DNA of 41,390 bases from Candidatus Woesearchaeota archaeon (GCA_016177265.1 JACOVP010000005.1:1-41390), one strand, 5' to 3'; counted from the stretch's first letter, positions 2,986-37,713 are shown. Numbers and translations: made by a program. Notes: generated by a model not told the origin, from the letters alone.

Positions 2986-4455
2986 ATGAAAGAGTTTGGC
3001 TTGTATATAAATGGAAAATGGACGCCTTCCACAAGTAAAAAGACCTTTCCAACCATCAATCCTGCTAAAAAGAATCAAGTGCTTGCTCAGTGTGCTGCAG
3101 GTACTAGGGAAGATGTAGAGAAAGCAGTCTATGCTGCAGAAAAAGCATTACCAGCATGGAAAAAGATGCCTGCTCCGCGTCGTGGTGAGGTATTGTTAGA
3201 AGTAGCTTCCTTATTGAAAAAAAGAAAGCAAAAGTTAGGTGAACTCGTTACAACAGAAATGGGAAAAGTGTTGAAGGAAGGACTTGGTGATGTCCAGGAA
3301 GCTATTGATATTTTCGAATACATGGCAGGTGAAGGACGAAGATTATTTGGGCATACTACTCCTTCTGAATTAAAAAATAAATTCTGCTGCACTATTCGCC
3401 AACCTATTGGTGTTGTTGGCTTAATCACACCTTGGAACTTTCCCTTTGCAATTCCAGCTTGGAAACTAGCTCCTGCATTAATCTGTGGTAATACCATTGT
3501 CTTCAAACCATCATCAGATACGCCTTTGTGTGCAATTGAATTGATAAAAATACTTGAAGAGGCTGGCATTCCTCCTGGTGTTGTGAATATGGTAACAGGT
3601 TCAGGTGAAGATGTTGGTACTTCAATTATCACGCATAAACGTATTCAGGGTTTATCATTTACTGGTTCTCGTGAAACTGGTGAATTTATTGCAAGACAAT
3701 CAGGATTAAAAAAAGTTGGATTAGAGTTAGGTGGTAAAAATGCAATTATTATTATGGATGACGCTGATTTAGATTTAGCTCTGGAAGGAGTCCTCTGGGG
3801 AGCTTTTGGAACTACAGGTCAGCGTTGCACTGCCTGCTCTCGTGTTATTATTCATAAAAATGTGCAAAAAGAATTTGAAGAAAAACTGCTTGCAAGAGTC
3901 AAAAAACTAAAACTTGGGAGTGGTCTAGATCCAAAAACTGATGTTGGTCCTTTAATTGCGCATCGTGCTATCTTGAAAACACACATGTACACAGAAATTG
4001 GCAAAAAAGAAGGTGCTAAATTGTTATGTGGCGGATACTCAGTTAAGTCTTCAGGGTTCTTTTATGCTCCAACTATTTTTACAAATGTCAAGCCACACAT
4101 GCGGATTGCCCGTGAAGAAATCTTCGGTCCAACCTTATCTATCTTAAAAGCGAATGATCTCAAAGAAGCTATTCAAATTTGTAATAGTATTGAGTATGGA
4201 TTAAGTTCTTCTATGTACACACAAAATATTAATAATGCTTTCAGAGCCATAGAACGGATAGAAGCAGGCATTACCTATGTCAATGCATCTACTATAGGCG
4301 CAGAAGTTCATCTACCTTTTGGTGGTGTAAAAGCTACTGGAAACGGAACAAGAGAAGCTGGATGGACAGGAATCGAAGAATTTTCAGAAGAAAAAACAAT
4401 ATATATAGATTATTCTGGTAAATTGCAGAAAGCGCAGATTGATATTGAGGAGTAA
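2986..4455 (+). CDS. NAD(P)+-dependent aldehyde dehydrogenase
   Basis: It contains the ALDH motifs ELGGKN, the catalytic Cys region FGTTGQRCTACSR, and PFGG near the C-terminus. AGAGGT lies 4 nt upstream of ATG 2986. An alternative ATG occurs at 2956. Confidence 0.9.
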   Translation: MKEFGLYINGKWTPSTSKKTFPTINPAKKNQVLAQCAAGTREDVEKAVYAAEKALPAWKKMPAPRRGEVLLEVASLLKKRKQKLGELVTTEMGKVLKEGLGDVQEAIDIFEYMAGEGRRLFGHTTPSELKNKFCCTIRQPIGVVGLITPWNFPFAIPAWKLAPALICGNTIVFKPSSDTPLCAIELIKILEEAGIPPGVVNMVTGSGEDVGTSIITHKRIQGLSFTGSRETGEFIARQSGLKKVGLELGGKNAIIIMDDADLDLALEGVLWGAFGTTGQRCTACSRVIIHKNVQKEFEEKLLARVKKLKLGSGLDPKTDVGPLIAHRAILKTHMYTEIGKKEGAKLLCGGYSVKSSGFFYAPTIFTNVKPHMRIAREEIFGPTLSILKANDLKEAIQICNSIEYGLSSSMYTQNINNAFRAIERIEAGITYVNASTIGAEVHLPFGGVKATGNGTREAGWTGIEEFSEEKTIYIDYSGKLQKAQIDIEE

Positions 4456-4458
4456 ATT

Positions 4459-5568
4459 ATGAATTTTAAAAAAGAAGCAATAAAACTTCACGAAGGGCTC
4501 AAAGGTAAAATAGAAATCAAACCAAAGATAAAAGTAAATCAAAAAATCCTTTCTCTTATCTACACACCCGGTGTAGCGGAAATTGTTCGATTAATTCATA
4601 AAAATAAAGCAGATGTCTATAAATATACGGGCAGGGGCAATACCATCGCCATCATCTCTGACGGTTCTCGAGTGCTTGGTCTTGGTAATCAAGGTGCAGA
4701 AGCAGCCCTTCCAGTCATGGAAGGAAAAGCTTTGATCTACAAAACGTTTGGTAATGTTAATGCCATTCCTCTTTGTCTGAAAACACAAGATGCACAAGAG
4801 ATTATTAAAATAGTAGAAAATCTAGCCCCTAATTTCGGTGCTATCAACATTGAAGATATAGAGTCACCAAAATGTTTTGAAATCGTAGAAGCATTAACAC
4901 AACGTCTCGATACTCCCGTCTTTCATGACGACCAACATGGAACAGCAGTCGTTACGGTCGCGGGTTTACTCAACGCATTAAAGGTTGTCAAGAAAAAATT
5001 GGAAATGGTAAAGATAGTCATCCTTGGTGCCGGTGCAGCCGGCTATGGTATTATGACATTACTCCATTATGCTGGTGCTAGAAATATGTTAGTGCTAGAC
5101 AGTCAAGGTATTATCTATGAAGATCGTGCTAACTTAAATAAATACAAAGAGCATATAGCAAGAATAACTAATCCTAGAAGAGAAAGAGGACGACTAGGAG
5201 ATGCTCTGAAAAATGGTGATGTTTTCATCGGCGTTTCAGGGCAAAAAAATATCCTCACGCAGAAGCAGATGAAGAGCATGAAAAAACACCCCATAATCTT
5301 TGCTCTCTCCAATCCAGATCCGGAAATCATGCCACAAGAAGCAAGAAAAGGTGGTGCAGCTGTTATTGCAACAGGCAGAAGTGACATAAAAAATCAGATT
5401 AATAATGACATTTGTTTTCCCTTTATTATGCGAAAAATATTGGACGAACATCGAAAAAAAATTGATGAATTATTCTTATATGCAACTGCAAAAAAAATTG
5501 CAAGCACTGTGAAAAAAGTAAGAGCAGACAAAATTATCCCAACAATTAATGAAATGAAACCGCTCTAA
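4459..5568 (+). CDS. Malic enzyme (NAD(P)-dependent, decarboxylating, short form)
   Basis: The motifs YTPGVA, GLGNQG, FHDDQHGTA, the GAGAAG Rossmann loop and ALSNPDPEI are present. The start lies 3 nt after the ALDH stop. Confidence 0.9.
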   Translation: MNFKKEAIKLHEGLKGKIEIKPKIKVNQKILSLIYTPGVAEIVRLIHKNKADVYKYTGRGNTIAIISDGSRVLGLGNQGAEAALPVMEGKALIYKTFGNVNAIPLCLKTQDAQEIIKIVENLAPNFGAINIEDIESPKCFEIVEALTQRLDTPVFHDDQHGTAVVTVAGLLNALKVVKKKLEMVKIVILGAGAAGYGIMTLLHYAGARNMLVLDSQGIIYEDRANLNKYKEHIARITNPRRERGRLGDALKNGDVFIGVSGQKNILTQKQMKSMKKHPIIFALSNPDPEIMPQEARKGGAAVIATGRSDIKNQINNDICFPFIMRKILDEHRKKIDELFLYATAKKIASTVKKVRADKIIPTINEMKPL

Positions 5569-30137: not shown

Positions 30138-30256
30138 TGAGTATACTCAACTATATAAAAAGGTCAAATTCCTCTGTTTCCAGCCAAAAAGAAGCTATTC
30201 TATCCATTTCTCAAACACCAGCGATAAGTATTTATACGAGTTCTGCTATAGAGGGT

Positions 30257-30267
30257 AGTGAGGGGGT
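30257..30267 (+). repeat. 11-bp direct repeat, left copy, near the left edge of the high-GC block
   Basis: AGTGAGGGGGT is identical to 36782-36792. The match extends to GGG[T/G]AGTGAGGGGGT with one mismatch. Confidence 0.6.
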
Positions 30268-30507: not shown

Positions 30508-30532
30508 GGGGTAGTGGGCTGGACTCTACCCC
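30508..30532 (+). repeat. Perfect 7-bp stem hairpin upstream of the integrase start
   Basis: GGGGTAG (30508-30514) pairs with CTACCCC (30526-30532) across an 11-nt loop. Confidence 0.6.
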
Positions 30533-30582
30533 AGGGTGGGGGAATGGTAGTGACAGGATCTGCTCGGGGGAGGAACGAGACC

Positions 30583-32040
30583 ATGGAGATCGAGTACATT
30601 GACGTGAACGAGGTGGAGAAACGCTTCAGGCAGGCGCTGGCGAGGTTTGAGCAACGGCCGGACGTGAGCGAGGGGAACAAGGAGCTGCTCAAGCGGTTTC
30701 TGCGGGAATCATTCTTGGGGAAGACGAATCCTGGGCGGGCGAAGAAGCGAGTCGGCTTCTCGCGACTGCAGGGCTACTTGAACTACCTGTCGACCTTGAT
30801 CCGGTTCGTCCGCAAGGACCTGGACCAGGTGACGCAGGGAGACATGGAGGGCTTCATCGAGGCGCTCGAGCGGAATGAGATCCTGTCCATCCGGCCCATC
30901 ATGTATGGTCGTTCAGGATGGAAGGTCGCGAACACCCCCTTCAGCAAGAGCCACAAGCTCCACCTCAAGATGGCTGTCCGGAAGTTCTATCGGTGGCTCC
31001 TGGGCAACAATCGGGAATACCCGCCCCTGGTGGACTGGATTGAAGTGCTCCCTGTGCACCAGGAGATCCCTGCGCTCACGGAGGAGGAGGTCAGGCAGCT
31101 GCTCGGAGCCTGTTCAAGGACCGTGCACCGCGCCCTGATCCAGATGCTCTTTGACGGTGGCTTTCGGATCGCGGAGCTCCTGAATGTGCGGCTGTGTCAT
31201 GTCCAGCTCCAGTGCGTCGACGAGGAGGCCGGGCGGAAGTGCTTCCTCGTCCGCATCCCCTTCTCGAAGACCATGCCGCGAACCATTGTTCTCCCCATGG
31301 AGACCACGACCCGATGGTTGTCCTTGTGGCTCGCAGAGCATCCTGCGCAACCTGAAGTCCGGGAGGATGGCACGATCCAGTGCGACCAACTCCAAGCCCA
31401 GCTCTTTCCCATGCCGGTGAAGCGAGCTCGCACCATCCTGAAGACAGCAGGGAAACGGGCTCTGGCCAAGCGGGTCTATCCCCACCTGATCCGCCACACC
31501 TCTGCCACTTACTGGGCGAACCGCCTTCCCTACTTCAAGTTCTGCAAGCGCTTCGGCTGGACATTGACGAGCAAGATGCCCCAGCGCTACATCGACCGCC
31601 AAGGGATTGATGACCTGGACGTGGCCAGGATCTATCGGCAGACCAAGACGCCGCGGCAACCCCAGAGTGCTCCATCACTGCCATGTCCCGCGCTTGAACG
31701 GGAGGAACCTGACCCTCGCCAGACCGTTGAAGCGGATGGCCCCCCTCCACTACTGAATGAAAGGAGTGAGGGTCGAGGGCGAGCTCCAACACCGCAGGCG
31801 CCACCTCATAGTGACCTCGAACGCCTCGAGCGTCTCGGCCAGGTGCTGTTGCAGGAGCTGTGGCGACTGAAGGATGGGCAGACCGAAAACGGAACACCGG
31901 CAGAACGGGCAACAACCCTCAATACTACGCCCGTCGACGCATCGGAGGGAATGGATAGACGCCCCCGTGAACCGCTCCCTCCATGGACAACAAATCATCG
32001 GCAGGTTGTGAAGCAACAACGGAGCGTCGGATCCTGGTGA
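30583..32040 (+). CDS. Tyrosine recombinase / integrase with long Pro/Arg-rich C-terminal tail
   Basis: The catalytic pattern is present: GFRIAELLNVR (Arg), HLIRHTSATYW (HxxR) and MPQRYIDRQG (Tyr). GGAGG lies about 10 nt upstream of ATG 30583. The track start at 30514 is GTG. Confidence 0.85.
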   Translation: MEIEYIDVNEVEKRFRQALARFEQRPDVSEGNKELLKRFLRESFLGKTNPGRAKKRVGFSRLQGYLNYLSTLIRFVRKDLDQVTQGDMEGFIEALERNEILSIRPIMYGRSGWKVANTPFSKSHKLHLKMAVRKFYRWLLGNNREYPPLVDWIEVLPVHQEIPALTEEEVRQLLGACSRTVHRALIQMLFDGGFRIAELLNVRLCHVQLQCVDEEAGRKCFLVRIPFSKTMPRTIVLPMETTTRWLSLWLAEHPAQPEVREDGTIQCDQLQAQLFPMPVKRARTILKTAGKRALAKRVYPHLIRHTSATYWANRLPYFKFCKRFGWTLTSKMPQRYIDRQGIDDLDVARIYRQTKTPRQPQSAPSLPCPALEREEPDPRQTVEADGPPPLLNERSEGRGRAPTPQAPPHSDLERLERLGQVLLQELWRLKDGQTENGTPAERATTLNTTPVDASEGMDRRPREPLPPWTTNHRQVVKQQRSVGSW

Positions 32041-32100
32041 ACCACGTGCCGCAGAATGCGCGGGATGAAGAGAACGCATGTCCTTCTCAGCCCGCGAGCG

Positions 32101-32355
32101 CTAGAATTTGTACGCATCGTGGCGGTGCCGAAGCGACCGAATGAACAGTTCATCAGAAGCACGGTCATGGTCGACGAACAGGCGGTAGGAACCGATGCGG
32201 ATCTTTCCGAAGTCAACACCCTCAAGATGCTCGATGTAACGGAGGACGTCCTTGGCGATGTCCCTGTGAAGCTTCTTGAGAATCCGTGCGCGGACATGGT
32301 GCTCAAGCTTATCTAAGGTGTCTTGAGCTTCCGGACCCCATCTAATCGACGTCAT
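32101..32355 (-). CDS. RelE/ParE-superfamily toxin
   Basis: The 84 aa product has the pattern IGSYRLFVDHD...LFIRSLRHRHDAY typical of RelE/ParE toxins. An ATGA overlap links it to the upstream antitoxin gene. Confidence 0.7.
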   Translation of the reverse strand: MTSIRWGPEAQDTLDKLEHHVRARILKKLHRDIAKDVLRYIEHLEGVDFGKIRIGSYRLFVDHDRASDELFIRSLRHRHDAYKF

Positions 32356-32564
32356 TGCACGTCGTACTTCTTGATCAGGTCCTCGTTGCTCACAAACTCA
32401 GTTCGTTTACGACGACGCGATGCTGCGACTTCGGCAATCACATCGTCCGCCACGCGGAGGTCGTCTTCGTTGACAGCGTCCTGCATGAGGAGGCGGAGCT
32501 GACGAACTTCTTTCCGGAGGCCGTGCAGTTCGCGGTGGACTTGCTGGAGCGTTACCGTTGTCAT
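32352..32564 (-). CDS. Putative antitoxin partner of the RelE-like toxin
   Basis: The 70 aa helical protein is translationally coupled upstream of the toxin. A TATA-like box (32585-32595) lies 26 nt upstream of the ATG. Confidence 0.6.
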   Translation of the reverse strand: MTTVTLQQVHRELHGLRKEVRQLRLLMQDAVNEDDLRVADDVIAEVAASRRRKRTEFVSNEDLIKKYDVQ

Positions 32565-32584
32565 GAAACTCTGGAAGAGGCGCT

Positions 32585-32595
32585 CCTATAAAAAG
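32585..32595 (-). promoter_or_regulatory. TATA-like box for the island antitoxin-toxin operon
   Basis: CTTTTTATAGG on the minus strand lies about 26 nt upstream of ATG 32564. It is an isolated A/T patch in GC-rich DNA. Confidence 0.45.
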
Positions 32596-32689
32596 ATTAC
32601 GCTTGGCGCTAGGAAGGAGAGCGAGCATCTCAGGTGATGGCTTATAAGGAATGGATCGACCGAAGGGCGAATAGTGAGAACCCTGTCCG

Positions 32690-34669
32690 ATGAACATGCC
32701 ATCCCTGCTGCGAAAACTCGAACCCCTCCTTCCAAGAGAAGTGAAACGGTGGCGTCTGATGCTTCCGTTGGTGAACGAGGACACGAGGAAACTCCTGGAG
32801 CGCCAGATCATCAGCCTAGCCCACAAGCATCTTGGGAATCACAACCAGCGGCTCTTGCTGCCACCTCCGCCAGAGAAGCTGTCCAAGGGCACGTTCAACC
32901 TCGGCACGATCCTCTATGACACGGAGAAGTGGTCATTCGCCTTGACGGAAGGAGAGCTGCTGCAGAACCTTGCCATCTTCGGTCGTTCTGGTGCAGGAAA
33001 AACGAATGTGGTCTTCCATCTCCTCCAGCAGTTTCTCAAGAAAGGCATCCCGTTCCTCTTCTTCGATTGGAAACGGACAGCACGCCATCTCCTTCCTCTC
33101 TTGAAGCACCCGGTGTTGCTCTACACGCCAGGACGAAAACTCGCTCCCTTTCCCTTCAACACCTTGATCCCGCCACCTGGTCTTGAACAGCATCTCCACG
33201 TGCAGCAGGTCCTGGACATCCTGGCAGCGGCCTACACCCTGGGTGACGGTGCCACGAGTCTCATCCAGCGCGTCCTCCAGGAATGGTACACGAAGAACGC
33301 AACACCGCCCATGATCCATGACCTCGTCCAAGAACTGCAATGCCTGAATGTGAAAGGTCGGGCTCACGGGTGGCATGCTTCGGCGGTGCGTGCACTCCAA
33401 AGTCTGGACTATGCTGACCTCGTTACTTCCACTGCTGAAGATCAGGAGGCCAGGGTCGACGAACTCCTCCACCACTCGACGATCCTCGAGCTCAATGGTC
33501 TGGGCGACAACGCGAAGCAGTTCCTCATTCCATCCATGCTCCTCTGGATCTTCAACGCCCGCCTCGCCAGGAGTGACCGAGAGCAGCTCCGCTTCGTGGT
33601 CATCGTGGAAGAGGCACACCACCTGCTCTACACGCGGAAGGGCCAGGAGTCCGCGATGGAACGCTTGGTCCGTCAATGTCGGGAGCTGGGCATCGCCATG
33701 GTCATCGTCGACCAGCACCCCCACTTGATTTCCAGCGCTGCCCTGGGTAATACCTTCACCACGATCTGCCTGAACCTCAAAGATCCCCGGGACATGAATC
33801 GTGCTGCTGCCCTCTGCCTCCTCGATGAAGAGGACCGTGGACACTTGAGCACGCTGCCCGTTGGTCATGGGATTGTGAAGCTCCAGAACCGCTGGCACCA
33901 ACCCTTCCTCGTTCGATTCCCTCTGGTGCAGGTGGAGAAGGGAGCAGTCACCAATGATCGCCTTCACGCCTTCCTCATTGGCAAGAGACCACGTTCGGGA
34001 CGAAAACCGCCTTTGTCGTTGAAGGAAGAGGGCGTTCGGCAGGTTCGGTTTGTGGATGTCATTCCTTCAGAGGATGCATGCCGTCTGATCGAGGATTGTG
34101 TCCTCCATCCCTTTGACGGGGTGAAGGCACGCTACCAACGCCTGAGTTGGAGTGCGGATAAGGGAACGAGGCTGGTGAGGGAGCTGGTGGCTGCAGGACT
34201 CCTGGAGTTGGAAAGGGTTGACCTTGGCACCACGAGGAAGACCTTGCTTCGGCCCAGTCGCAGTGCTAGGCTCGCCCTTGGCCTTGACCACCATCCCCAG
34301 CATGAGTCCATCGCCCATGAGTTTTGGAAGTACCACGTCGCTGCCCAGTTTCTGGAAGCGGAGTACCAGGTCGAGATCGAGGCTCCTCGTCCAAGGGGAG
34401 GAGGACGGGTGGACGTGCTGGCCAGGAAGGGCGAGGAATCTGTTGCCATCGAAGTCGAGACTGGGAAGAGTGACGTGGTGGGGAACGTGAAAGCTGACCT
34501 GGCAGCGGGGTTCACCAGGGTGGTGGTTATCGCCACGGATGATGTTGCGAGGGAGTCCATCGAGCGACAGCTAGGGAGGGCTGGACTGCTGATGACAGAA
34601 CGAGTGATCGTCGCCGACTTGGACATGGTCCTCCGTCACCCGGCGATAGACTACCGGAGGAAGCCCTAA
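32690..34669 (+). CDS. HerA/FtsK-like (DUF87-type) P-loop ATPase fused to winged-helix and PD-(D/E)xK-like nuclease modules
   Basis: It has Walker A GRSGAGKT (32981-33004), Walker B FVVIVEEAH and VIVDQHP. The C-terminal part reads GVKARYQRL...LVRELVAAGLL (wHTH-like) followed by VDVLA...AIEVETGKS (nuclease-like). Confidence 0.85.
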   Translation: MNMPSLLRKLEPLLPREVKRWRLMLPLVNEDTRKLLERQIISLAHKHLGNHNQRLLLPPPPEKLSKGTFNLGTILYDTEKWSFALTEGELLQNLAIFGRSGAGKTNVVFHLLQQFLKKGIPFLFFDWKRTARHLLPLLKHPVLLYTPGRKLAPFPFNTLIPPPGLEQHLHVQQVLDILAAAYTLGDGATSLIQRVLQEWYTKNATPPMIHDLVQELQCLNVKGRAHGWHASAVRALQSLDYADLVTSTAEDQEARVDELLHHSTILELNGLGDNAKQFLIPSMLLWIFNARLARSDREQLRFVVIVEEAHHLLYTRKGQESAMERLVRQCRELGIAMVIVDQHPHLISSAALGNTFTTICLNLKDPRDMNRAAALCLLDEEDRGHLSTLPVGHGIVKLQNRWHQPFLVRFPLVQVEKGAVTNDRLHAFLIGKRPRSGRKPPLSLKEEGVRQVRFVDVIPSEDACRLIEDCVLHPFDGVKARYQRLSWSADKGTRLVRELVAAGLLELERVDLGTTRKTLLRPSRSARLALGLDHHPQHESIAHEFWKYHVAAQFLEAEYQVEIEAPRPRGGGRVDVLARKGEESVAIEVETGKSDVVGNVKADLAAGFTRVVVIATDDVARESIERQLGRAGLLMTERVIVADLDMVLRHPAIDYRRKP

Positions 34670-35307
34670 TGGAAACTACATACCGTGTTATCGACTTGAC
34701 GGTTAACTTCGAGAAGCGGCGATTGATCCTCCACGAGATCGAGGCCAATAAACAAGCTCTTCTCGAGCTCCTGAACCCACAAGGAGGATACAATATTGGC
34801 ATCCGAAAGGAGGCTCTCATCCTTGATTTCGCGGCGGGTCGCTTCATCGCGGAGGAGACCGGGATCATTGCTTTCCATTTTCGTGGCGCTACTATCCAAA
34901 AAGTCCAGCAACCCATTATTGCATGTACATCGCACATTTGCGAGACCTTAGGCTGGCCCAGAAACAATGAACCAATCTCCGTGAACATAGAAATCGTCTC
35001 CGAGACGACTAAAGCAAACGCTGGTTCATTTACTGCGAAGCATCTAGATGTTCCCGCCCTAGAAACCCTCCTGTCGCAGAAGATTCCCCATGCTGGGCTG
35101 ACGCTCTTCCTAACGCCATTGGATACGCAACGACCACGAGAAGATGTGCGGGTGAGAATTGAGCCACTGGCCAAGGAGCCGCATCAGAAGCTCTACGTTC
35201 GCCTCTCATTGGACGCAGAGGACACGCGAATCGCCAAAATCGAAGCGCATCTGGCTAGGTGCGATACACTTCTCGGGCAGATACAGGAGGCGATAAGCGC
35301 ATCATGA
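34669..35307 (+). CDS. Hypothetical protein (operon gene 2)
   Basis: The 212 aa ORF has an ATG that overlaps the ATPase stop (TAATG). I recognise no motifs. Confidence 0.65.
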   Translation: METTYRVIDLTVNFEKRRLILHEIEANKQALLELLNPQGGYNIGIRKEALILDFAAGRFIAEETGIIAFHFRGATIQKVQQPIIACTSHICETLGWPRNNEPISVNIEIVSETTKANAGSFTAKHLDVPALETLLSQKIPHAGLTLFLTPLDTQRPREDVRVRIEPLAKEPHQKLYVRLSLDAEDTRIAKIEAHLARCDTLLGQIQEAISAS

Positions 35308-36272
35308 GCGTTGAACGTAGAGTGACGTTGAGATTAGGGACACTCGGCGCGAGGCAGAACAGTGGGATATCTAGATGGAAGGCGGTAAGCGAGCTGGAGG
35401 ATTGGAAAGCTTTAAGAACTCTGTTGACGAGGGAAACTGTTGGATCAAAGGCATGGGAGGAGGGCCGGCGATTTGGGGAGAGTAATACACTTACGGCACG
35501 TGAACGGATGATGGAGAAGCTCGAGGATGGGAGGACAGAGGACAAAGCGCTTTACGTCGCGCTTATTCAGAAGTATGAGAAGGAGTTGCGCACTAGGGCT
35601 GTGGCCGGGGAAAACAACATAGAGAGAGAGGCGTGCATCACCCATCTAGGAGTGCTCTACGATGACAAGCCGCAGGCACTGCAGGAGTATGGGGATGTGG
35701 ATCGACAGATCCTAGAGCAGATTCTGAAAGAAGGTGGACCATTTAGACAAATCCGGTCGGTCTTTCTGGCATTGCGCAGGAGACTAGAGAAGGGGAGTGG
35801 GTTCACGTGTGCGGAGCTTGAGCAGATCCTCGAAGGTGAGCGAGTCGTCATGCCGTCAACGACGCATATGGATCCGTTTGTGCGTAGGCGCGGTAGTCGA
35901 CTGCAGGAAGAGGGCTATAGATTGTTGCTGCGGTACTTCGGTGGGAAAGTAGGGGTAAAGGTGAAGGTGTATTCCGTGCGCGAGTATCATGCTGTATGTG
36001 AGAGAGGCGACCCGGATTGGTTGATTCGAGGAGAAGAAGGGACGGTGGAAGCACGAGCATTTAGAGCGTTGCGTTCCTTCGCGGGGATGCTGGAGAGCAT
36101 GAGAGCCTGGAATAGGGTGGAAGCATCGCTGCGTACGAGGGATCCAAGCCTGAGGGAAATGCGGGGGTGGGAAGTGAAAGAGACGATGGAGCGTCTGTTT
36201 GAGCGGGTCCGCAAGGGGGTAGAGGCGAAGTATAAGAGATGGGAGGAGTTTTGGCGGGGAGTGCGGAGATAA
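35304..36272 (+). CDS. Hypothetical Arg/Glu-rich helical protein (operon gene 3)
   Basis: It is 322 aa from ATG 35304, which overlaps the upstream stop (ATGA). The track start at 35259 is GTG. I recognise no motifs. Confidence 0.65.
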   Translation: MSVERRVTLRLGTLGARQNSGISRWKAVSELEDWKALRTLLTRETVGSKAWEEGRRFGESNTLTARERMMEKLEDGRTEDKALYVALIQKYEKELRTRAVAGENNIEREACITHLGVLYDDKPQALQEYGDVDRQILEQILKEGGPFRQIRSVFLALRRRLEKGSGFTCAELEQILEGERVVMPSTTHMDPFVRRRGSRLQEEGYRLLLRYFGGKVGVKVKVYSVREYHAVCERGDPDWLIRGEEGTVEARAFRALRSFAGMLESMRAWNRVEASLRTRDPSLREMRGWEVKETMERLFERVRKGVEAKYKRWEEFWRGVRR

Positions 36273-36727
36273 TGATCGCGGTGGATTCCGATGTCTTCTT
36301 GTCCGCGAAAGTGTTCAGCGGAAAGGATGAGAGGTCGAGGAAGAGCAACGAGTTTCTGGTTGCGGTCACCGGAGGGAATATGTGCACGACAGTGATTAAT
36401 GTTTTTGAGGTGTGTGGCGTTGCCGGTCCACATCTTGAGGAGGAGGAGCTACGGAAGTGGTTGCATAACTTTCGCGGGACGTTTGGTGTACAGATTCTGT
36501 TGCCGCGAGACGCGGCTCTTCCGCTTGGTTCCTTCTTTCGGATCTTGCCAACAATATTATTTGGTAAGCTTCACAAGGGGATGCGGTTTGGAGATGCTTT
36601 GATAATAGGAATTGTGGAAGGACATCCTGAGATACGAGAATTTGTTACGTGGAATGTGAAGGATTTCGATGGGAGGACGCGTCTGCGAGTGTCATCGCCA
36701 GCGGATTACTTGGCACGGGTGAGGTGA
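36272..36727 (+). CDS. PIN-domain nuclease (VapC-like; operon gene 4)
   Basis: It is 151 aa from ATG 36272, which overlaps the upstream stop (TAATG). The PIN acidic pattern is IAVDSDVF, VFEVCG, FGDALIIG and TWNVKDFD. Confidence 0.75.
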   Translation: MIAVDSDVFLSAKVFSGKDERSRKSNEFLVAVTGGNMCTTVINVFEVCGVAGPHLEEEELRKWLHNFRGTFGVQILLPRDAALPLGSFFRILPTILFGKLHKGMRFGDALIIGIVEGHPEIREFVTWNVKDFDGRTRLRVSSPADYLARVR

Positions 36728-36781
36728 CTGACTGGGGGGAGGCGAGATTCAGGGGATCATGGGAGGCACGGTGCTGTGGGG

Positions 36782-36792
36782 AGTGAGGGGGT
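36782..36792 (+). repeat. 11-bp direct repeat, right copy, 55 nt after the PIN gene stop
   Basis: AGTGAGGGGGT is identical to 30257-30267. Confidence 0.6.
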
Positions 36793-37071
36793 GAAGGGAG
36801 CATCTCAGCGAAACCTTTTTTAAGGATGACGCCGTGCCAAGTGCATGGGCCATGTCGAGTCAGGGAGAGTCCCGCAGTATGCGCAGGAGTTGTTGAAGTC
36901 AGTTCGAGAGAAGACGTGCTACCCTCTGGTCTGGCGACAACAACCCGGCCTCGGTCACGATTCGGAAGTCAAGGTTGCCCGTCCTGGCGAGAGATGCCAT
37001 GTGTTGCTCTACCGGCCTGAGTACCGGGACTACGAGCTCCACTTCGTGGTCAGGATCAGGGAAGAGCGTGA

Positions 37072-37713
37072 TCAACACGTTCCTCGTCGGCCAATACCTG
37101 CAACGAGGTGGCAGGGCTTGGGTGTGCGGATGACCTGGTAGAGGAGAGTTGCGAGCCGTTCCATCTCGCAGGTGATCGCGCGAATCTGTGGTTCAGTGAT
37201 TCCGTCCCAATAATATGCGAGGCGGCCGAGGACGCCGGTGACCCAGCACCCGATGGCATCGGACAGCTCAGGTTCCCTTGCCTCAAGATCCTGCCACCAA
37301 CGTGCGCGAACCTTGAGATCCTGGTCCTGGGCGATCGTCCGCCAGATCAAGTCGCGGGTGACAAGCGGATTTTCTTCATCTATAAACCCTCGCTCAATAT
37401 AAACCACCTTCTTTTTTTCTCGTTTGAACAAAAACTCATAATAGGCGGACTCATCTGTATCTTGAAATCTCCCCCATCTAGTGACATCAAAAAGAAGTAC
37501 ATAGTCAAATCGTTGTTCTTTAGTATATTGAAACAATGCTAAAAATCCAGGTCTATTTGCGTTTAGACCAGTCTTGCCGGCGTCTTGAAACTCTTTGATG
37601 ATACGGATGTTATGTTTCTTAGCAAATTTTTGGACTTCTTCTCTTTGAACGGGTATTGAGAACTCTTGTTTGTCCTCTGCAGAGTGACGATAATATGCTA
37701 CAGCTGTTTTCAT
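37072..37713 (-). CDS. Serine recombinase (resolvase/invertase catalytic domain); the 3' half lies in the high-GC block, so the gene is possibly chimeric or truncated
   Basis: The N-terminus reads AVAYYRHSAEDKQEFSIPVQ (catalytic Ser region), then DAGKTGLNANRPGF and LLFDVTRWGRF. A TATA-like box lies 26 nt upstream of the ATG. Composition switches inside the ORF at about 37368, and I see no recognisable DNA-binding domain after that point. Confidence 0.6.
   Translation of the reverse strand: MKTAVAYYRHSAEDKQEFSIPVQREEVQKFAKKHNIRIIKEFQDAGKTGLNANRPGFLALFQYTKEQRFDYVLLFDVTRWGRFQDTDESAYYEFLFKREKKKVVYIERGFIDEENPLVTRDLIWRTIAQDQDLKVRARWWQDLEAREPELSDAIGCWVTGVLGRLAYYWDGITEPQIRAITCEMERLATLLYQVIRTPKPCHLVAGIGRRGTC

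What the first reader, a model, noticed from the sequence alone, without database searches (positions are those of the whole stretch)
32690..36727. Four-gene, stop/start-overlapping operon on the island: candidate undescribed defence or DNA-processing system
Four ORFs are chained by overlapping stop and start codons: TAATG at 34667-34671, ATGA at 35304-35307 and TAATG at 36270-36274. That chaining implies co-translation and probably a stoichiometric complex. Gene 1 is a HerA/FtsK-like P-loop ATPase with a C-terminal winged-helix and PD-(D/E)xK-like module. Genes 2 (212 aa) and 3 (322 aa) carry no motif I can assign. Gene 4 is a PIN-domain nuclease. I do not recognise this combination (NTPase plus two different nuclease folds plus two orphan proteins, on an integrase-bearing element next to a TA pair) as any named defence system. 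The HerA-associated systems I know pair HerA with NurA, Sir2 or DUF4297. An alternative explanation is a replication or transfer module of an archaeal integrative element.
Basis: partly seen in the sequence, partly recalled or inferred. Interest (0 to 1): 0.9.

Follow-up and report, generated by a model that had tools for sequence, protein, structure and literature searches.

The report
Mobile-element ATPase with orphan cargo genes
The four chained genes are real but are not one conserved system: the first is the core motor-nuclease of a widespread integrase-borne mobile element, and the other three are a one-off cargo cassette (a TBP-fold protein, a gene with no relatives anywhere, and a probable PIN nuclease) that may be a small new defence-type module.

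Summary
Four same-strand ORFs (32690-36727) are joined by TAATG, ATGA and TAATG, and they lie on a 52-61% GC island in a 40% GC Woesearchaeota MAG contig.

Gene 1 is a DUF87/HerA-FtsK ATPase with a C-terminal PD-(D/E)xK-like module. It belongs to a large family conserved over its full length (at least 756 proteins, 45-60% identity), mostly from Planctomycetota.

In 81 related loci the conserved partners lie upstream of the ATPase: a tyrosine integrase, a double wHTH protein, an orphan DNA methylase, ArdC and a coiled-coil protein. The genes downstream vary and include QatABC, dGTPase, Ppl and Mrr. Gene 1 is therefore a mobile-element backbone gene followed by a cargo slot.

Genes 2-4 recur in none of these loci as a set. 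Gene 3 has no relative among 1.84 billion representative proteins.

Gene 2 has 13 remote relatives. It folds with high confidence (pLDDT 93.6) into a tandem TBP-like fold. In every context read it heads a tightly coupled cassette whose second gene is non-homologous between lineages; the third gene is SIR2 in one case and PIN-like here.

The PIN assignment for gene 4 rests on motifs and one local match only. No named system matches.

The parts
30514..32040 (+). Tyrosine integrase (508 aa), backbone gene of the island
   Evidence: Pfam Phage_integrase 1.4e-10. NCBIfam XerA-like 1.3e-15, below cutoff. 52% identical to the integrases that directly precede, with a 4-nt overlap, the closest gene 1 relatives in L002/L003/L004.
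32101..32564 (-). ParE/RelE-like toxin (32101-32355) and a 70-aa antitoxin-like gene (32352-32564). This pair sits between integrase and ATPase, which are adjacent in the closest relatives.
   Evidence: Pfam ParE_toxin 7.6e-5, 23.7 bits against a cutoff of 23. The pair is absent from all related loci.
32690..34669 (+). Gene 1: DUF87/HerA-FtsK-type ATPase with a wHTH-like region and a PD-(D/E)xK-like C-terminus. It is the backbone gene ('F0') of an integrative-element family.
   Evidence: DUF87 above threshold. Best sub-threshold matches are CedD/CedB/TraC/VirB4/HerA, mad8/HerA/DndH and PDB HerA 4d2i at 7.7e-6. 756 homologues were found, of which the 120 listed cover at least 92% of the query at 46-60% identity. 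171 relatives in GTDB species genomes.
32981..33004 (+). Walker A motif GRSGAGKT (K104)
   Evidence: G98, S100, G101, G103, K104 and T105 are invariant in 26 sequences.
33596..33622 (+). Walker B region VVIVEEAHH (E307, E308)
   Evidence: V303, E307, E308, A309, H310 and H311 are invariant.
34316..34468 (+). PD-(D/E)xK-like nuclease core of gene 1 (H543...E564...D575...E588-x-E590-TGK593)
   Evidence: These residues are invariant. The profile aligns to Cas4 4r5q across H..E..D..ExK at E 0.13. Pfam AHJR-like hits 7 of 14 members (best 0.0065), plus CoiA_nuc, PDDEXK_9, Mrr_cat and Hjc.
34669..35307 (+). Gene 2: tandem TBP-like (helix-grip) fold protein. It is the conserved first gene ('A') of a rare cassette family.
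   Evidence: Only a self hit in the word-indexed 5.8-billion-protein database. 12 remote relatives among 1.84 billion representatives, plus L008 at E 2e-18 in a pairwise comparison. AF2 pLDDT 93.6 and pTM 0.88. Foldseek top hits are TBPs: prob 1.0, E 4e-5, TM 0.37-0.46 in PDB. The best BFVD hit has TM 0.68-0.71, and giant-virus TBPs follow.
35304..36272 (+). Gene 3: ORFan of 322 aa, rich in Arg/Glu/Lys. It occupies the variable 'B' position of the cassette.
   Evidence: Only self hits in both protein searches. No Pfam, NCBIfam, PHROG or PADLOC match. Coding-type codon composition. AF2 without an alignment failed, pLDDT 35.
36272..36727 (+). Gene 4: probable PIN_3-like nuclease (151 aa), the candidate effector ('C' position)
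   Evidence: Motifs IAVDSD (D5), TTVINVFE, GDALIIG and VTWNVKDFD. Residues 108-147 are 52% identical to the end of a Pfam-verified PIN_3 domain in L088. No Pfam or PDB hit of its own.
36845..37141 (+). High-GC 98-aa ORF of unknown function, still inside the island
   Evidence: GC 0.59 with coding-type periodicity. Weak similarity (E 1e-4) to an ORF in F0 locus L042. No Pfam hit.
37072..37713 (-). Serine-recombinase ORF that contains the right-hand GC switch of the island at about codon 118-121 (about 37345-37365)
   Evidence: The Pfam Resolvase match covers residues 4-116 only. GC by 10-codon blocks jumps from about 0.35 to about 0.6 at residue 121.
30253..30267 (.). Candidate att-like 15-mer GGGTAGTGAGGGGGT at the left GC transition. 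Its partner is at 36778-36792.
   Evidence: This is the only direct repeat found between the two borders, 14 of 15 bases identical. My rough estimate of the chance probability is 0.01-0.1, so it is only a candidate.
36778..36792 (.). Right copy of the candidate att-like 15-mer (GGGGAGTGAGGGGGT), 51 nt after the gene 4 stop
   Evidence: Not found in any other locus except L001, which is the same DNA.

Best explanation
The locus is a composite of a mobile-element backbone and a cargo cassette. It is not a four-protein machine.

(1) Backbone. The tyrosine integrase and gene 1 are the core of a family of integrative elements found mainly in Planctomycetota. Gene 1 is a HerA/FtsK-type P-loop motor fused to a wHTH-like region and a PD-(D/E)xK nuclease-like domain. 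I infer that it translocates or processes the element's DNA together with the integrase, during excision, integration or transfer. The analogies are FtsK with XerCD and the VirB4/TraB-type DNA-transfer ATPases. This step is inference, not shown.

(2) Cargo slot. The position directly downstream of this ATPase holds different genes in each relative, often known defence systems.

(3) Cargo. In this window the slot holds genes 2-4, which differ in composition from the backbone. The cassette belongs to a rare modular family. Its first gene ('A', gene 2) is conserved and has a tandem TBP-like fold. Its tightly coupled second gene ('B', here the ORFan gene 3) is non-homologous between lineages. A third gene ('C') is often present: PIN-like here and SIR2 elsewhere, with two other third genes carrying only tentative aspartic-protease-like motifs.

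Proposed mechanism for the cassette (inferred): A is a nucleic-acid-binding sensor or adaptor, as the TBP-like domains of RNase HIII and RnlA are. B gives specificity or keeps the effector inactive. C is the toxic effector, here a PIN RNase or DNase. The module would then act as an abortive-infection or toxin-antitoxin-type conflict module that benefits the element or its host.

The translational coupling to gene 1 reflects read-through expression of cargo from the backbone operon.
For: Backbone:
- Gene 1 is conserved over its full length in at least 756 proteins and in 171 hits in GTDB species genomes.
- In the closest relatives (59-60% identity) a 52%-identical integrase overlaps the ATPase start by 4 nt, and the downstream genes are unrelated: 94 aa plus Mrr_cat 878 aa, or 239 aa, 252 aa and an HD dGTPase.
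- Among 66 loci with at least 1.5 kb of upstream sequence, a coiled-coil gene lies upstream in 34, a double wHTH gene in 32, an N6_N4 methylase in 19 and ArdC in 6. An integrase lies upstream in 18 of 48 loci with at least 6 kb of upstream sequence.
- Several copies occur in one MAG: OFTM303 gave L014, L017, L023, L054 and L077.

Cargo slot: 58 downstream ORFs hit QatA/B/C, dGTPase, Ppl, Mrr_cat, KAP NTPase, TCAD9, an AbiEii-like ATPase and methylases.

Composition: GC3 is 0.74 for the integrase and 0.70 for gene 1, against 0.57, 0.60 and 0.56 for genes 2-4.

Cassette family:
- In all 9 independent contexts read, the gene 2 relative is followed by the next gene with an overlap or a gap of at most 10 nt. 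These are the window, L008, L084, L085, L086, L087, L089/L090, L091, L092 and L093.
- The B proteins are unrelated except between L008 and L086.
- In L089 the third gene is SIR2_2, E 2.2e-10.
- The gene 2 fold is.
- TBP-like domains bind substrate in RnlA, an anti-phage TA toxin (PMC8266594).
- Gene 4 matches a PIN_3 protein locally.
Against: - No function has been shown for any of the genes.
- Gene 3 and gene 4 could not be modelled: pLDDT 35.
- Gene 4 has no profile-level PIN hit.
- The TBP match has low global TM (0.37-0.46, rmsd about 10 A) against solved TBPs. The fold class is well supported, but homology to TBP and DNA binding are not.
- Two of the roughly 9 known gene 2-family cassettes lie next to an F0 ATPase (the window and L008). 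This could reflect a functional link rather than a shared cargo site.
- In about half of the loci, and in this window, the F1 and F2 partners are missing. The backbone is therefore heterogeneous.
- An F0 protein plus a methylase could itself be a restriction-like defence rather than a mobility function.
- No element ends were defined.
- Only L089 has an established defence-type effector, and the contexts of the other cassettes are not clearly defence islands.
Confidence: 0.6

Rival explanations
1. All four genes encode one dedicated HerA-based defence system, a stoichiometric complex of an NTPase, two nucleases and two adaptor proteins.
For: - Three stop/start overlaps and no + strand terminator-like site between the genes.
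- HerA-family ATPases do scaffold defence effectors in known systems. The sub-threshold PDB and PADLOC matches are to such HerA proteins.
- A gene 2 relative also lies beside an F0 ATPase in L008.
Against: - The set does not recur. Genes 3 and 4 are absent from 82 other F0 loci and, for gene 3, from 1.84 billion representatives.
- The L008 cassette is on the opposite strand and has different B and C genes.
- Gene 2 relatives occur with no F0 gene within 8 kb.
- F0 is conserved with upstream mobile-element genes and with many different downstream cargoes.
- Codon composition differs between gene 1 and genes 2-4.
- NCBIfam anti-phage HerA models score 18-39 bits against cutoffs of 800-850.
Confidence: 0.1
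2. Genes 2-4 serve the element itself rather than acting as a defence or addiction module. They could be regulators, replication or transfer accessories, or anti-defence genes, like the ArdC and orphan methylases of related elements.
For: - Related elements carry anti-restriction functions: ArdC, orphan N6_N4 methylases and DUF2958.
- A TBP-like DNA binder could be a regulator or an origin-binding protein.
- Gene 3 is a basic, apparently helical protein (low-confidence model).
- Cargo read through from the backbone operon would be expressed together with the element's own genes.
Against: - No match to any replication, conjugation or anti-defence family in Pfam, NCBIfam, PHROGs or PADLOC.
- The gene 2 family is also found away from such elements, once with a SIR2 effector. 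That fits a self-contained conflict module better.
- The position is occupied by bona fide defence systems in relatives.
Confidence: 0.15
3. The island is not really part of the archaeal genome. The contig is a chimeric assembly, or the island is bacterial (Planctomycetota-like) DNA mis-joined at a recombinase gene. The 'archaeal' setting would then be an artefact. This does not change what the genes are.
For: - A 15-20 point GC jump at both borders.
- The closest relatives of integrase and ATPase are in Planctomycetota.
- The right GC switch falls inside a serine-recombinase ORF, a kind of gene at which assemblers can mis-join.
- The independent Logan contig L001 covers only about 31204-37240 and stops short of both GC junctions.
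- No convincing att repeats.
Against: - Two chimeric joins would be needed to place 7 kb between two 40% GC arms of one contig. A real insertion is simpler.
- F0 relatives occur in two other Nanoarchaeia MAGs, one on a 956-kb contig (L044 and L079).
- An integrase-bearing island with foreign composition is what horizontal transfer produces.
Confidence: 0.15

Closest known systems
HerA-scaffolded defence systems (SIR2-HerA, DUF4297-HerA) and HerA-NurA end resection
   Same: Gene 1 has a DUF87/HerA-type P-loop domain with Walker A and B motifs. The nearest solved structures by sequence are HerA proteins of these systems, E 7.7e-6 to 2e-3. A nuclease function is associated with the ATPase.
   Different: - Only the C-terminal half of the ATPase domain aligns, and NCBIfam scores are 18-39 bits against cutoffs of 800-970.
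- The nuclease-like domain is fused in cis and is PD-(D/E)xK-like.
- No NurA, SIR2 or DUF4297 partner is present.
- The conserved neighbours are integrase, wHTH, methylase and ArdC genes.
DNA-transfer and translocation ATPases: VirB4/TraC, CedB/CedD, AICE TraB, and FtsK acting with XerCD
   Same: - The best profile match for gene 1 is CedD at 2.2e-16, followed by CedB, TraC and VirB4. CedD is a VirB4-like ATPase needed for DNA import (10.1101/2024.09.27.615246).
- Like FtsK and TraB (my own knowledge), the motor is followed by a wHTH-like region.
- It is encoded next to, and in close relatives translationally coupled with, a Xer-like tyrosine recombinase.
   Different: - All scores are far below the family cutoffs: 60 against 600.
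- By my reading of the sequence there is no membrane segment, and no other T4SS, relaxase or pilus genes are present.
- It carries an extra nuclease-like domain.
- Full-length relatives are absent from PLSDB plasmids, IMG/VR and phage GenBank.
Integrative islands with a conserved core and a variable defence-cargo hotspot (for example P4-like satellites, ICE hotspots; my own knowledge)
   Same: An integrase plus conserved core genes, and a fixed position where unrelated defence systems (Qat, dGTPase, Ppl, Mrr-type) alternate between relatives.
   Different: The core gene set (double wHTH, coiled-coil, F0 ATPase-nuclease, with or without methylase and ArdC) matches no element family I could find in the held literature. 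The hosts are mainly Planctomycetota, with scattered other phyla and DPANN archaea.
TBP and TBP-like domains: TBP, the RNase HIII N-domain, and RnlA TBP1/TBP2 of the RnlAB anti-phage TA system
   Same: - The gene 2 model is two beta-alpha-beta4-alpha repeats, and Foldseek ranks TBPs first.
- RnlA places two TBP-like domains in front of an RNase effector and needs TBP1 for substrate binding (PMC8266594).
- In this window a tandem TBP-like protein is encoded two genes upstream of a putative PIN RNase.
   Different: - Sequence identity is 8-15% and global TM to solved TBPs only 0.37-0.46. RnlA itself was not among the top 50 hits.
- Gene 2 is a free-standing protein.
- According to PMC3597702, characterised non-TBP examples carry a single TBP domain. 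A free tandem form outside transcription is therefore unusual.
VapBC-type PIN toxin-antitoxin modules and PIN_3 (PF13470) proteins
   Same: Gene 4 has the size (151 aa) and motif order of a PIN domain. It shares VTWNVKDFD and the preceding helix with a verified PIN_3 domain. It is translationally coupled to the upstream gene, as toxins are to antitoxins.
   Different: - No PIN profile is matched.
- The upstream gene is a 322-aa ORFan, not a small DNA-binding antitoxin.
- A third, conserved TBP-fold gene heads the cassette.
MADS (mad1-mad8)
   Same: The best PADLOC hit for gene 1 is mad8, at 6.8e-14 over residues 93-400.
   Different: MADS is an 8-gene operon in which MAD6, MAD7 and MAD8 are mandatory (10.1101/2023.03.30.534895). 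No other mad protein is matched by genes 2-4.

Membership tests
HerA/FtsK superfamily (Pfam DUF87, PF01935) | Profile match above the curated threshold | tested here: met
   30.1 bits against a gathering score of 23.2, residues 71-280.
HerA/FtsK superfamily (Pfam DUF87, PF01935) | Walker A GxxGxGK[ST] and an acidic Walker B motif | tested here: met
   GRSGAGKT (K104) and VVIVEE (E307, E308) are invariant in 26 homologues.
HerA/FtsK superfamily (Pfam DUF87, PF01935) | Hexameric ring and DNA translocation | not testable with these tools
   Needs biochemistry or a multimer model.
Anti-phage HerA systems (SIR2-HerA, DUF4297-HerA) and HerA-NurA | Equivalog-level match to an anti-phage or repair HerA model | tested here: not met
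   NCBIfam HerA_antiphage 39.4 bits against 800, HerA_antiphage_2 17.9 against 850, HerA_Thermprot 36.9 against 800.
Anti-phage HerA systems (SIR2-HerA, DUF4297-HerA) and HerA-NurA | An adjacent SIR2, DUF4297 or NurA partner gene | tested here: not met
   Genes 2-4 have no Pfam or PADLOC hit.
PD-(D/E)xK nuclease fold (gene 1 C-terminus) | Conserved D...(D/E)xK core on an alpha-beta-beta-beta-alpha-beta scaffold | tested here: inconclusive
   D575, E588 and E590 (with K593 in TGK) are invariant. The profile aligns to the Cas4 core at E 0.13. Seven of 14 members hit AHJR-like at E of 0.0065 or weaker, all below threshold. No structure model was made.
PIN domain (gene 4) | Match to a PIN-clan profile | tested here: not met
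   No Pfam family at E<=10. No PDB sequence hit, alone or as a 2-sequence profile.
PIN domain (gene 4) | Conserved acidic residues in the canonical order (the N-terminal Asp, a central Glu, Asp in helix 4, and a C-terminal T-x-[DN]-x-x-D-F motif) | tested here: inconclusive
   D5, E46, D108, N128 and D131 are present in the expected order (sequence). Residues 108-147 are 52% identical to the end of a verified PIN_3 domain. There are no homologues with which to test conservation.
PIN domain (gene 4) | The alpha/beta/alpha PIN fold | tested here: inconclusive
   The single-sequence AF2 model has pLDDT 35 and is unusable.
TBP-like (helix-grip) fold, tandem (gene 2) | Two repeats of beta-alpha-beta4-alpha, with structural matches to TBP | tested here: met
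   pLDDT 93.6. Secondary structure is E-H-H-E-E-E-E-H followed by E-H-H-E-E-E-H. TBPs are the top PDB hits, prob 1.0, and BFVD gives TBP-like hits with best TM 0.68-0.71.
TBP-like (helix-grip) fold, tandem (gene 2) | Homology to TBP proper, or DNA binding through a saddle | tested here: not met
   Identity is 8-15%, global TM 0.37-0.46 and rmsd about 10 A. No Pfam TBP hit. Binding cannot be tested here.
Named defence systems in PADLOC-DB v2 | Any component model matched by genes 2-4 | tested here: not met
   No family at E<=0.1.
MADS | MAD6, MAD7 and MAD8 all present | tested here: not met
   Only a mad8-like hit for gene 1. The requirement comes from 10.1101/2023.03.30.534895.
Conjugative T4SS ATPase (VirB4/TraC/CedB/CedD) | Equivalog-level score and neighbouring T4SS genes | tested here: not met
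   CedD 59.7 bits against 600, TraC 29 against 567. No T4SS genes in the window island or among the conserved neighbours.
F0 integrative-element backbone (defined here) | Full-length (about 650 aa) collinear homology including the C-terminal module | tested here: met
   92-100% coverage at 46-60% identity to 120 listed proteins. 120 invariant positions spread over residues 12-599.
F0 integrative-element backbone (defined here) | Upstream F1 (double wHTH) and F2 (coiled-coil) partner genes | tested here: not met
   Absent from the window. hhalign of genes 2-4 against F1, F2, F4 and F7 gives probabilities of 3.2% or less. The closest relatives (L002-L004) also lack them and have integrase-ATPase directly adjacent.
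F0 integrative-element backbone (defined here) | A linked tyrosine integrase of the same lineage | tested here: met
   The window integrase is 52% identical to those overlapping the ATPase start in L002/L003/L004.

The most novel reading that the evidence does not exclude
Two undescribed things may be stacked in this locus.

(a) A new family of integrative elements, with an integrase plus a HerA/FtsK-type motor fused to a nuclease. These elements spread defence cargo at a fixed slot downstream of the ATPase through Planctomycetota and occasionally into DPANN archaea.

(b) A new modular defence family. Its conserved free-standing tandem TBP-fold protein would be the nucleic-acid sensor or adaptor. 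Its second gene is hypervariable. Its effectors are interchangeable (PIN here, SIR2 elsewhere, possibly aspartic proteases).
Probability: 0.25. Interest if true: 0.7.

Novelty: new variant of a known kind. Interest (0 to 1): 0.5.

Why it matters
If the composite reading is right, the useful result is not a 'four-gene HerA system' but two separate leads.

First, the gene 1 family marks a large, uncharacterised class of integrase-linked elements in Planctomycetota and other poorly studied phyla. The position downstream of the ATPase is a predictable place to look for new defence genes; Qat, dGTPase, Ppl and Mrr-type genes already occur there.

Second, the gene 2 family would add a tandem TBP-like fold to the sensor or adaptor modules of prokaryotic conflict systems. 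TBP-like domains are otherwise known in transcription, DNA glycosylases, RNase HIII and RnlA. The cassette also shows an extreme case of partner-gene turnover.

Third, if the junctions are real, a bacterial-type element inside a Woesearchaeota contig would be a case of inter-domain transfer of a defence-carrying element.

All three leads are modest until function is shown.

Tried and rejected
1. **Permuted operon.** The sizes of genes 2, 3 and 4 (212, 322, 151 aa) resemble those of the conserved upstream partners F1, F4/F7 and F2 (about 190, 260-290, 143 aa). I tested whether the window carries a circularly permuted version of the same operon. hhalign probabilities were 3.2% or less, so I rejected this.

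2. **Viral packaging ATPase or provirus.** PHROG 'terminase large subunit' hits at 2.6e-12. However, the family is absent from IMG/VR, only remote ATPase-domain hits occur in phage GenBank, and no capsid genes are nearby. Rejected.

3. **Plasmid conjugation gene.** PLSDB gives only matches of about 24% identity confined to the ATPase domain. Not supported.

4. **Relatives of gene 4 and gene 2 in plasmids and phages.** None found.

6. **Structure of genes 3 and 4.** Single-sequence AF2 of the two proteins joined end to end gave pLDDT 35, so no fold search was attempted.

7. **Profile of gene 4 plus the L088 PIN region against the PDB.** No PIN hit.

8. **att sites.** Only a 15-mer with one mismatch. 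No tRNA in the window. No clear flanking repeats in L002 or L003.

9. **ncRNA on the island, such as a retron or intron.** No Rfam match at E<=0.1.

10. **Promoter and terminator scans.** No enrichment over shuffled sequence.

11. **Literature.** No paper in the held library describes this element family or a TBP-fold defence gene of this kind. Absence from that library is not proof of novelty.

Full report
**Observation**

The four ORFs exist as described: 32690-34669 (659 aa), 34669-35307 (212 aa), 35304-36272 (322 aa) and 36272-36727 (151 aa), all on the + strand. Direct reading confirms TAATG at 34667-34671, ATGA at 35304-35307 and TAATG at 36270-36274. GGAGG-like motifs lie 7-13 nt upstream of the gene 2 and gene 3 starts. 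No terminator-like site is present on the + strand inside the block.

All four frames have coding-type codon-position composition, unlike the long antisense ORFs that the high GC content produces. The block lies on an island of 52-61% GC in a contig of about 40% GC. The protein database names the contig as a Candidatus Woesearchaeota MAG. Upstream are a tyrosine integrase and, on the opposite strand, a ParE-like toxin with a small partner gene. The window has no tRNA, and the island has no Rfam match.

**Gene 1**

Pfam DUF87 (HerA central domain) is matched above threshold. Every more specific model is far below its cutoff: CedD 2e-16 (60 bits against 600), anti-phage HerA, CedB, TraC and VirB4, PADLOC mad8, HerA and DndH, and PDB HerA chains at 8e-6 or weaker.

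A search of 5.8 billion proteins returned 756 hits. The best 120 are all about 620-710 aa, cover at least 92% of the query and are 46-60% identical. An alignment of 26 of them has 120 invariant columns, including Walker A (K104), Walker B (E307, E308) and a C-terminal H543...E564...D575...E588-x-E590 block.

A profile of the C-terminal 208 residues aligns to the catalytic core of Cas4 (E 0.13). Individual members hit AHJR-like, CoiA_nuc, PDDEXK_9, Mrr_cat and Hjc. These hits are weak but all point to the PD-(D/E)xK fold. The wHTH between the two modules is inferred from the sequence pattern only.

**What gene 1 is associated with**

I fetched 80 loci from GTDB species genomes (171 relatives were found) and three from exact look-ups. 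The hosts are mostly Planctomycetota (Phycisphaerae, Pirellulales, Brocadiales). Scattered others include two Nanoarchaeia MAGs. Several copies occur in single MAGs.

I called ORFs and clustered them. The conserved neighbours are upstream of the ATPase. They are a roughly 190-aa double wHTH protein (F1), an N6_N4 DNA methylase (F4), ArdC (F7), a roughly 143-aa coiled-coil protein (F2) immediately before the ATPase, and a tyrosine integrase further upstream (F3). Pfam confirms the methylase, ArdC and wHTH assignments, and also a DUF2958 gene in L008.

The counts are:

| Upstream feature | Loci with it | Loci examined |
|---|---|---|
| F2 (coiled-coil) | 34 | 66 with at least 1.5 kb upstream |
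| F1 (double wHTH) | 32 | 66 with at least 1.5 kb upstream |
| Methylase | 19 | 66 with at least 1.5 kb upstream |
| ArdC | 6 | 66 with at least 1.5 kb upstream |
| Integrase | 18 | 48 with at least 6 kb upstream |

In the closest relatives (59-60% identity: L002/L004 from a Planctomycetota MAG, and L003), a 52%-identical integrase overlaps the ATPase start by 4 nt, and F1 and F2 are absent, as in the window. In the window the TA pair separates integrase and ATPase.

The family is absent from IMG/VR. In phage GenBank and PLSDB only distant ATPase-domain matches occur. This is the signature of a chromosomal integrative element. Integrase, anti-restriction genes (ArdC, orphan methylase), multiple copies per genome and frequent short contigs all fit that reading. 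Gene 1 is its backbone ATPase.

**The downstream position is a cargo slot**

Downstream genes differ from locus to locus. Scanning 58 same-strand downstream ORFs gave QatA, QatB, QatC, dGTPase, Ppl, Mrr_cat, KAP NTPase, TCAD9, an AbiEii-like ATPase and several methylases. The two closest relatives carry a 94-aa gene, an F0 3' fragment and an Mrr_cat protein in one case, and 239-aa and 252-aa genes plus an HD dGTPase in the other.

Genes 2-4 of the window occupy this same slot. Their GC3 (0.56-0.60) is lower than that of the integrase (0.74) and gene 1 (0.70). This fits separate acquisition.

**Do genes 2-4 recur?**

tblastn of genes 2, 3 and 4 against the 82 other loci found nothing. My all-against-all clustering found one exception: a 221-aa ORF in L008 that is 26% identical to gene 2 over its full length (E 2e-18 pairwise). 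It lies on the opposite strand, between F2 and F0.

In the word-indexed 5.8-billion-protein database, genes 2 and 3 hit only themselves. A full HMMER scan of 1.84 billion cluster representatives, run with genes 2 and 3 joined end to end, gave no hit for gene 3. It gave 12 remote relatives for gene 2 (197-232 aa, 21-36% identity, E 6e-21 to 7e-4). Gene 3 is thus a true ORFan, and gene 2 belongs to a rare family. None of genes 2-4 matches Pfam (even at E<=10), NCBIfam, PHROGs or PADLOC.

**The gene 2 family**

With a 13-sequence alignment, AlphaFold2 gives pLDDT 93.6 and pTM 0.88. The model is two consecutive beta-alpha-beta4-alpha units. Foldseek ranks TATA-binding proteins first in the PDB (prob 1.0, E 4e-5), but with global TM of only 0.37-0.46. 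In BFVD the best hit has TM 0.68-0.71, followed by giant-virus TBP-like proteins. I read this as a tandem TBP-like (helix-grip) fold. It is not evidence of homology to TBP or of TATA-type binding.

In all nine independent contexts read, the gene 2 relative is the first gene of a cassette. The next gene follows with an overlap or a gap of at most 10 nt. These second genes (263-371 aa where complete) are unrelated to each other and to gene 3 by BLASTP, phmmer and hhalign. The one exception is L008 and L086, which share all three genes.

| Locus | Third gene |
|---|---|
| L089/L090 | SIR2_2 protein |
| L008, L086 | roughly 170-aa protein (L086 copy cut at 114 aa by the contig end), no family match |
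| L091 | 181-aa protein with a DSGA motif and faint Asp-protease hits, E about 0.2 |
| Window | gene 4 |

In L085 the pair has lower GC than its surroundings and sits between RND-efflux genes, with no F0 gene nearby. The recurring unit is therefore 'TBP-fold gene plus variable partner, with or without an effector'. It is not 'ATPase plus three genes'.

**Gene 4**

Neither Pfam nor PDB sequence searches support PIN, and the single-sequence AF2 model failed (pLDDT 35). What supports PIN is the order of motifs: IAVDSD with D5, TTVINVFE, GDALIIG and VTWNVKDFD. In addition, residues 108-147 are 52% identical to the end of a domain that Pfam recognises as PIN_3 (7.5e-12) in a metagenomic HTH-PIN protein. 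I rate PIN-like as likely (about 0.65) but unproven.

**Mechanism**

Shown:
- The backbone and cargo have the architecture described above.
- The four-gene set does not recur.
- The gene 2 cassettes are modular.
- Gene 2 has a tandem TBP-like fold.

Inferred:
- The ATPase-nuclease acts on element DNA with the integrase. The analogies are FtsK with XerCD and the VirB4/CedD/TraB-type motors. CedD is a VirB4-like ATPase needed for DNA import (10.1101/2024.09.27.615246).
- Genes 2-4 form a conflict module. The TBP-fold protein would bind nucleic acid, as the TBP-like domains of RnlA bind substrate (PMC8266594). The variable second protein would set specificity or restrain the effector. The PIN-like protein would be the toxic nuclease.

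An alternative for the backbone is that F0 with the methylase is itself restriction-like. I cannot exclude this. Its co-operonic ArdC and its multi-copy distribution argue for a mobile-element function.

**Comparison with known systems**

The locus is not a member of the SIR2-HerA, DUF4297-HerA or HerA-NurA systems: the partners are absent and the equivalog scores are far below cutoff. It is not MADS, because only a mad8-like hit is present, and MAD6-8 are mandatory (10.1101/2023.03.30.534895). It is not a T4SS.

It resembles integrative islands that have a defence-cargo hotspot. The cassette resembles toxin-antitoxin and abortive-infection modules with interchangeable effectors. A free-standing tandem TBP-like protein is unusual: according to PMC3597702, characterised non-TBP examples carry a single TBP domain. 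RnlA, however, has two fused to HEPN.

**Caveats**

- The archaeal setting is not independently verified. The Logan contig of the same run (L001) spans only about 31204-37240 and crosses neither GC junction.
- The right GC switch lies inside a serine-recombinase ORF.
- Only a weak 15-nt candidate att repeat was found.
- My ORF calling in related loci is crude, so the neighbour counts are approximate.
- The literature check covers only the held library.

**Verdict**

The 'single four-gene system' reading is not supported by comparative genomics. The locus is best described as a mobile-element backbone ATPase followed by a unique three-gene cargo cassette. That cassette is a new variant of a modular, defence-type gene arrangement. 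Interest is moderate at 0.5: there are two real leads but no demonstrated function.

Noticed in passing
window 37072-37713 (- strand): The 213-aa 'resolvase' ORF is a compositional hybrid. Codons 1 to about 118 are about 35% GC and carry the Pfam Resolvase match (residues 4-116). Codons from about 121 to 213 are about 60% GC and match nothing. The right border of the island therefore lies inside this ORF. Either the insertion truncated a host serine-recombinase gene or the assembly mis-joined here. No remainder of the gene was found at the left border.
   Followed up: partly
window 30253-30267 and 36778-36792: The 15-mer GGG[T/G]AGTGAGGGGGT is the only direct repeat shared by the two island borders. 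The left copy sits at the GC transition and the right copy 51 nt after gene 4. About 550 nt of high-GC DNA, including a 98-aa ORF (36845-37141), would then lie outside the element. That could be a remnant of an earlier insertion.
   Followed up: partly
L001 (Logan contig of SRR12113383, 6041 nt): An independent assembly of the run gives a contig identical to the island. It breaks inside the integrase (aa 231) and about 100 nt before the right GC switch, so it does not confirm either junction with the low-GC arms.
   Followed up: partly
L002/L004 10250-10375; L018 3347-3913; L019 3717-4673; L070 7085-7275: In several relatives a second, partial copy of the 3' end of the ATPase gene (the nuclease-motif region) lies downstream of the complete gene, with cargo or an IS-like gene in between. 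In L002 an 86-nt repeat is 79% identical. This suggests that cargo enters by recombination at the 3' end of the ATPase gene. No such fragment occurs in the window.
   Followed up: partly
L091 1934-2476; L008 5552-6064 (-); L085 8656-9771: Some third genes of gene 2-family cassettes, and the C-terminus of the L085 second gene, carry retropepsin-like motifs (LLDSGAP and IIGTDFF; ADFDTGAG; LGADFM). Only L091 gives faint Pfam Asp_protease_2 and gag-asp_proteas hits, at E about 0.2. They may be aspartic-protease effectors, but this is unproven.
   Followed up: partly
L085 8001-9771 (GCA_043806315.1, JAZDHF010000044.1): A gene 2-like gene and a 371-aa gene sit directly after a 1385-aa ACR_tran gene and before a 70-aa ACR_tran fragment. 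Their GC is 0.56-0.58 against 0.61-0.66 in the flanks. The cassette appears to have inserted into the end of an RND efflux pump gene.
   Followed up: no
L008 4068-7656: The only other F0 locus with a gene 2 relative has the three-gene cassette inverted between the F2 gene (4068-4511) and the ATPase (7992-). It lies next to a DUF2958 gene (5014-5352), a family typical of conjugative-element leading regions (my own knowledge).
   Followed up: partly
L014, L017, L023, L054, L077 (Phycisphaerae MAG OFTM303): At least five F0 loci occur in one MAG. Three have the same F1-methylase-ArdC-F2-F0 order and lie on short contigs. This is consistent with a multi-copy element that breaks assemblies.
   Followed up: no
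window 32933-33967 (- strand): A 344-aa ORF runs antisense inside gene 1. Similar antisense ORFs of 148-215 aa overlap genes 1-4. They are by-products of the high GC content and not genes. The conserved gene 1 family fixes the coding strand there, and the ORFs antisense to genes 2-4 lack coding-type periodicity.
   Followed up: yes
L044 and L079 (Candidatus Nanoarchaeia MAGs): Two other DPANN-type archaeal MAGs carry members of the ATPase family: 50% identity on a 9-kb contig of about 55% GC, and 35% identity on a 956-kb contig of variable GC. The presence of such elements in DPANN bins is therefore not unique to this window.
   Followed up: partly
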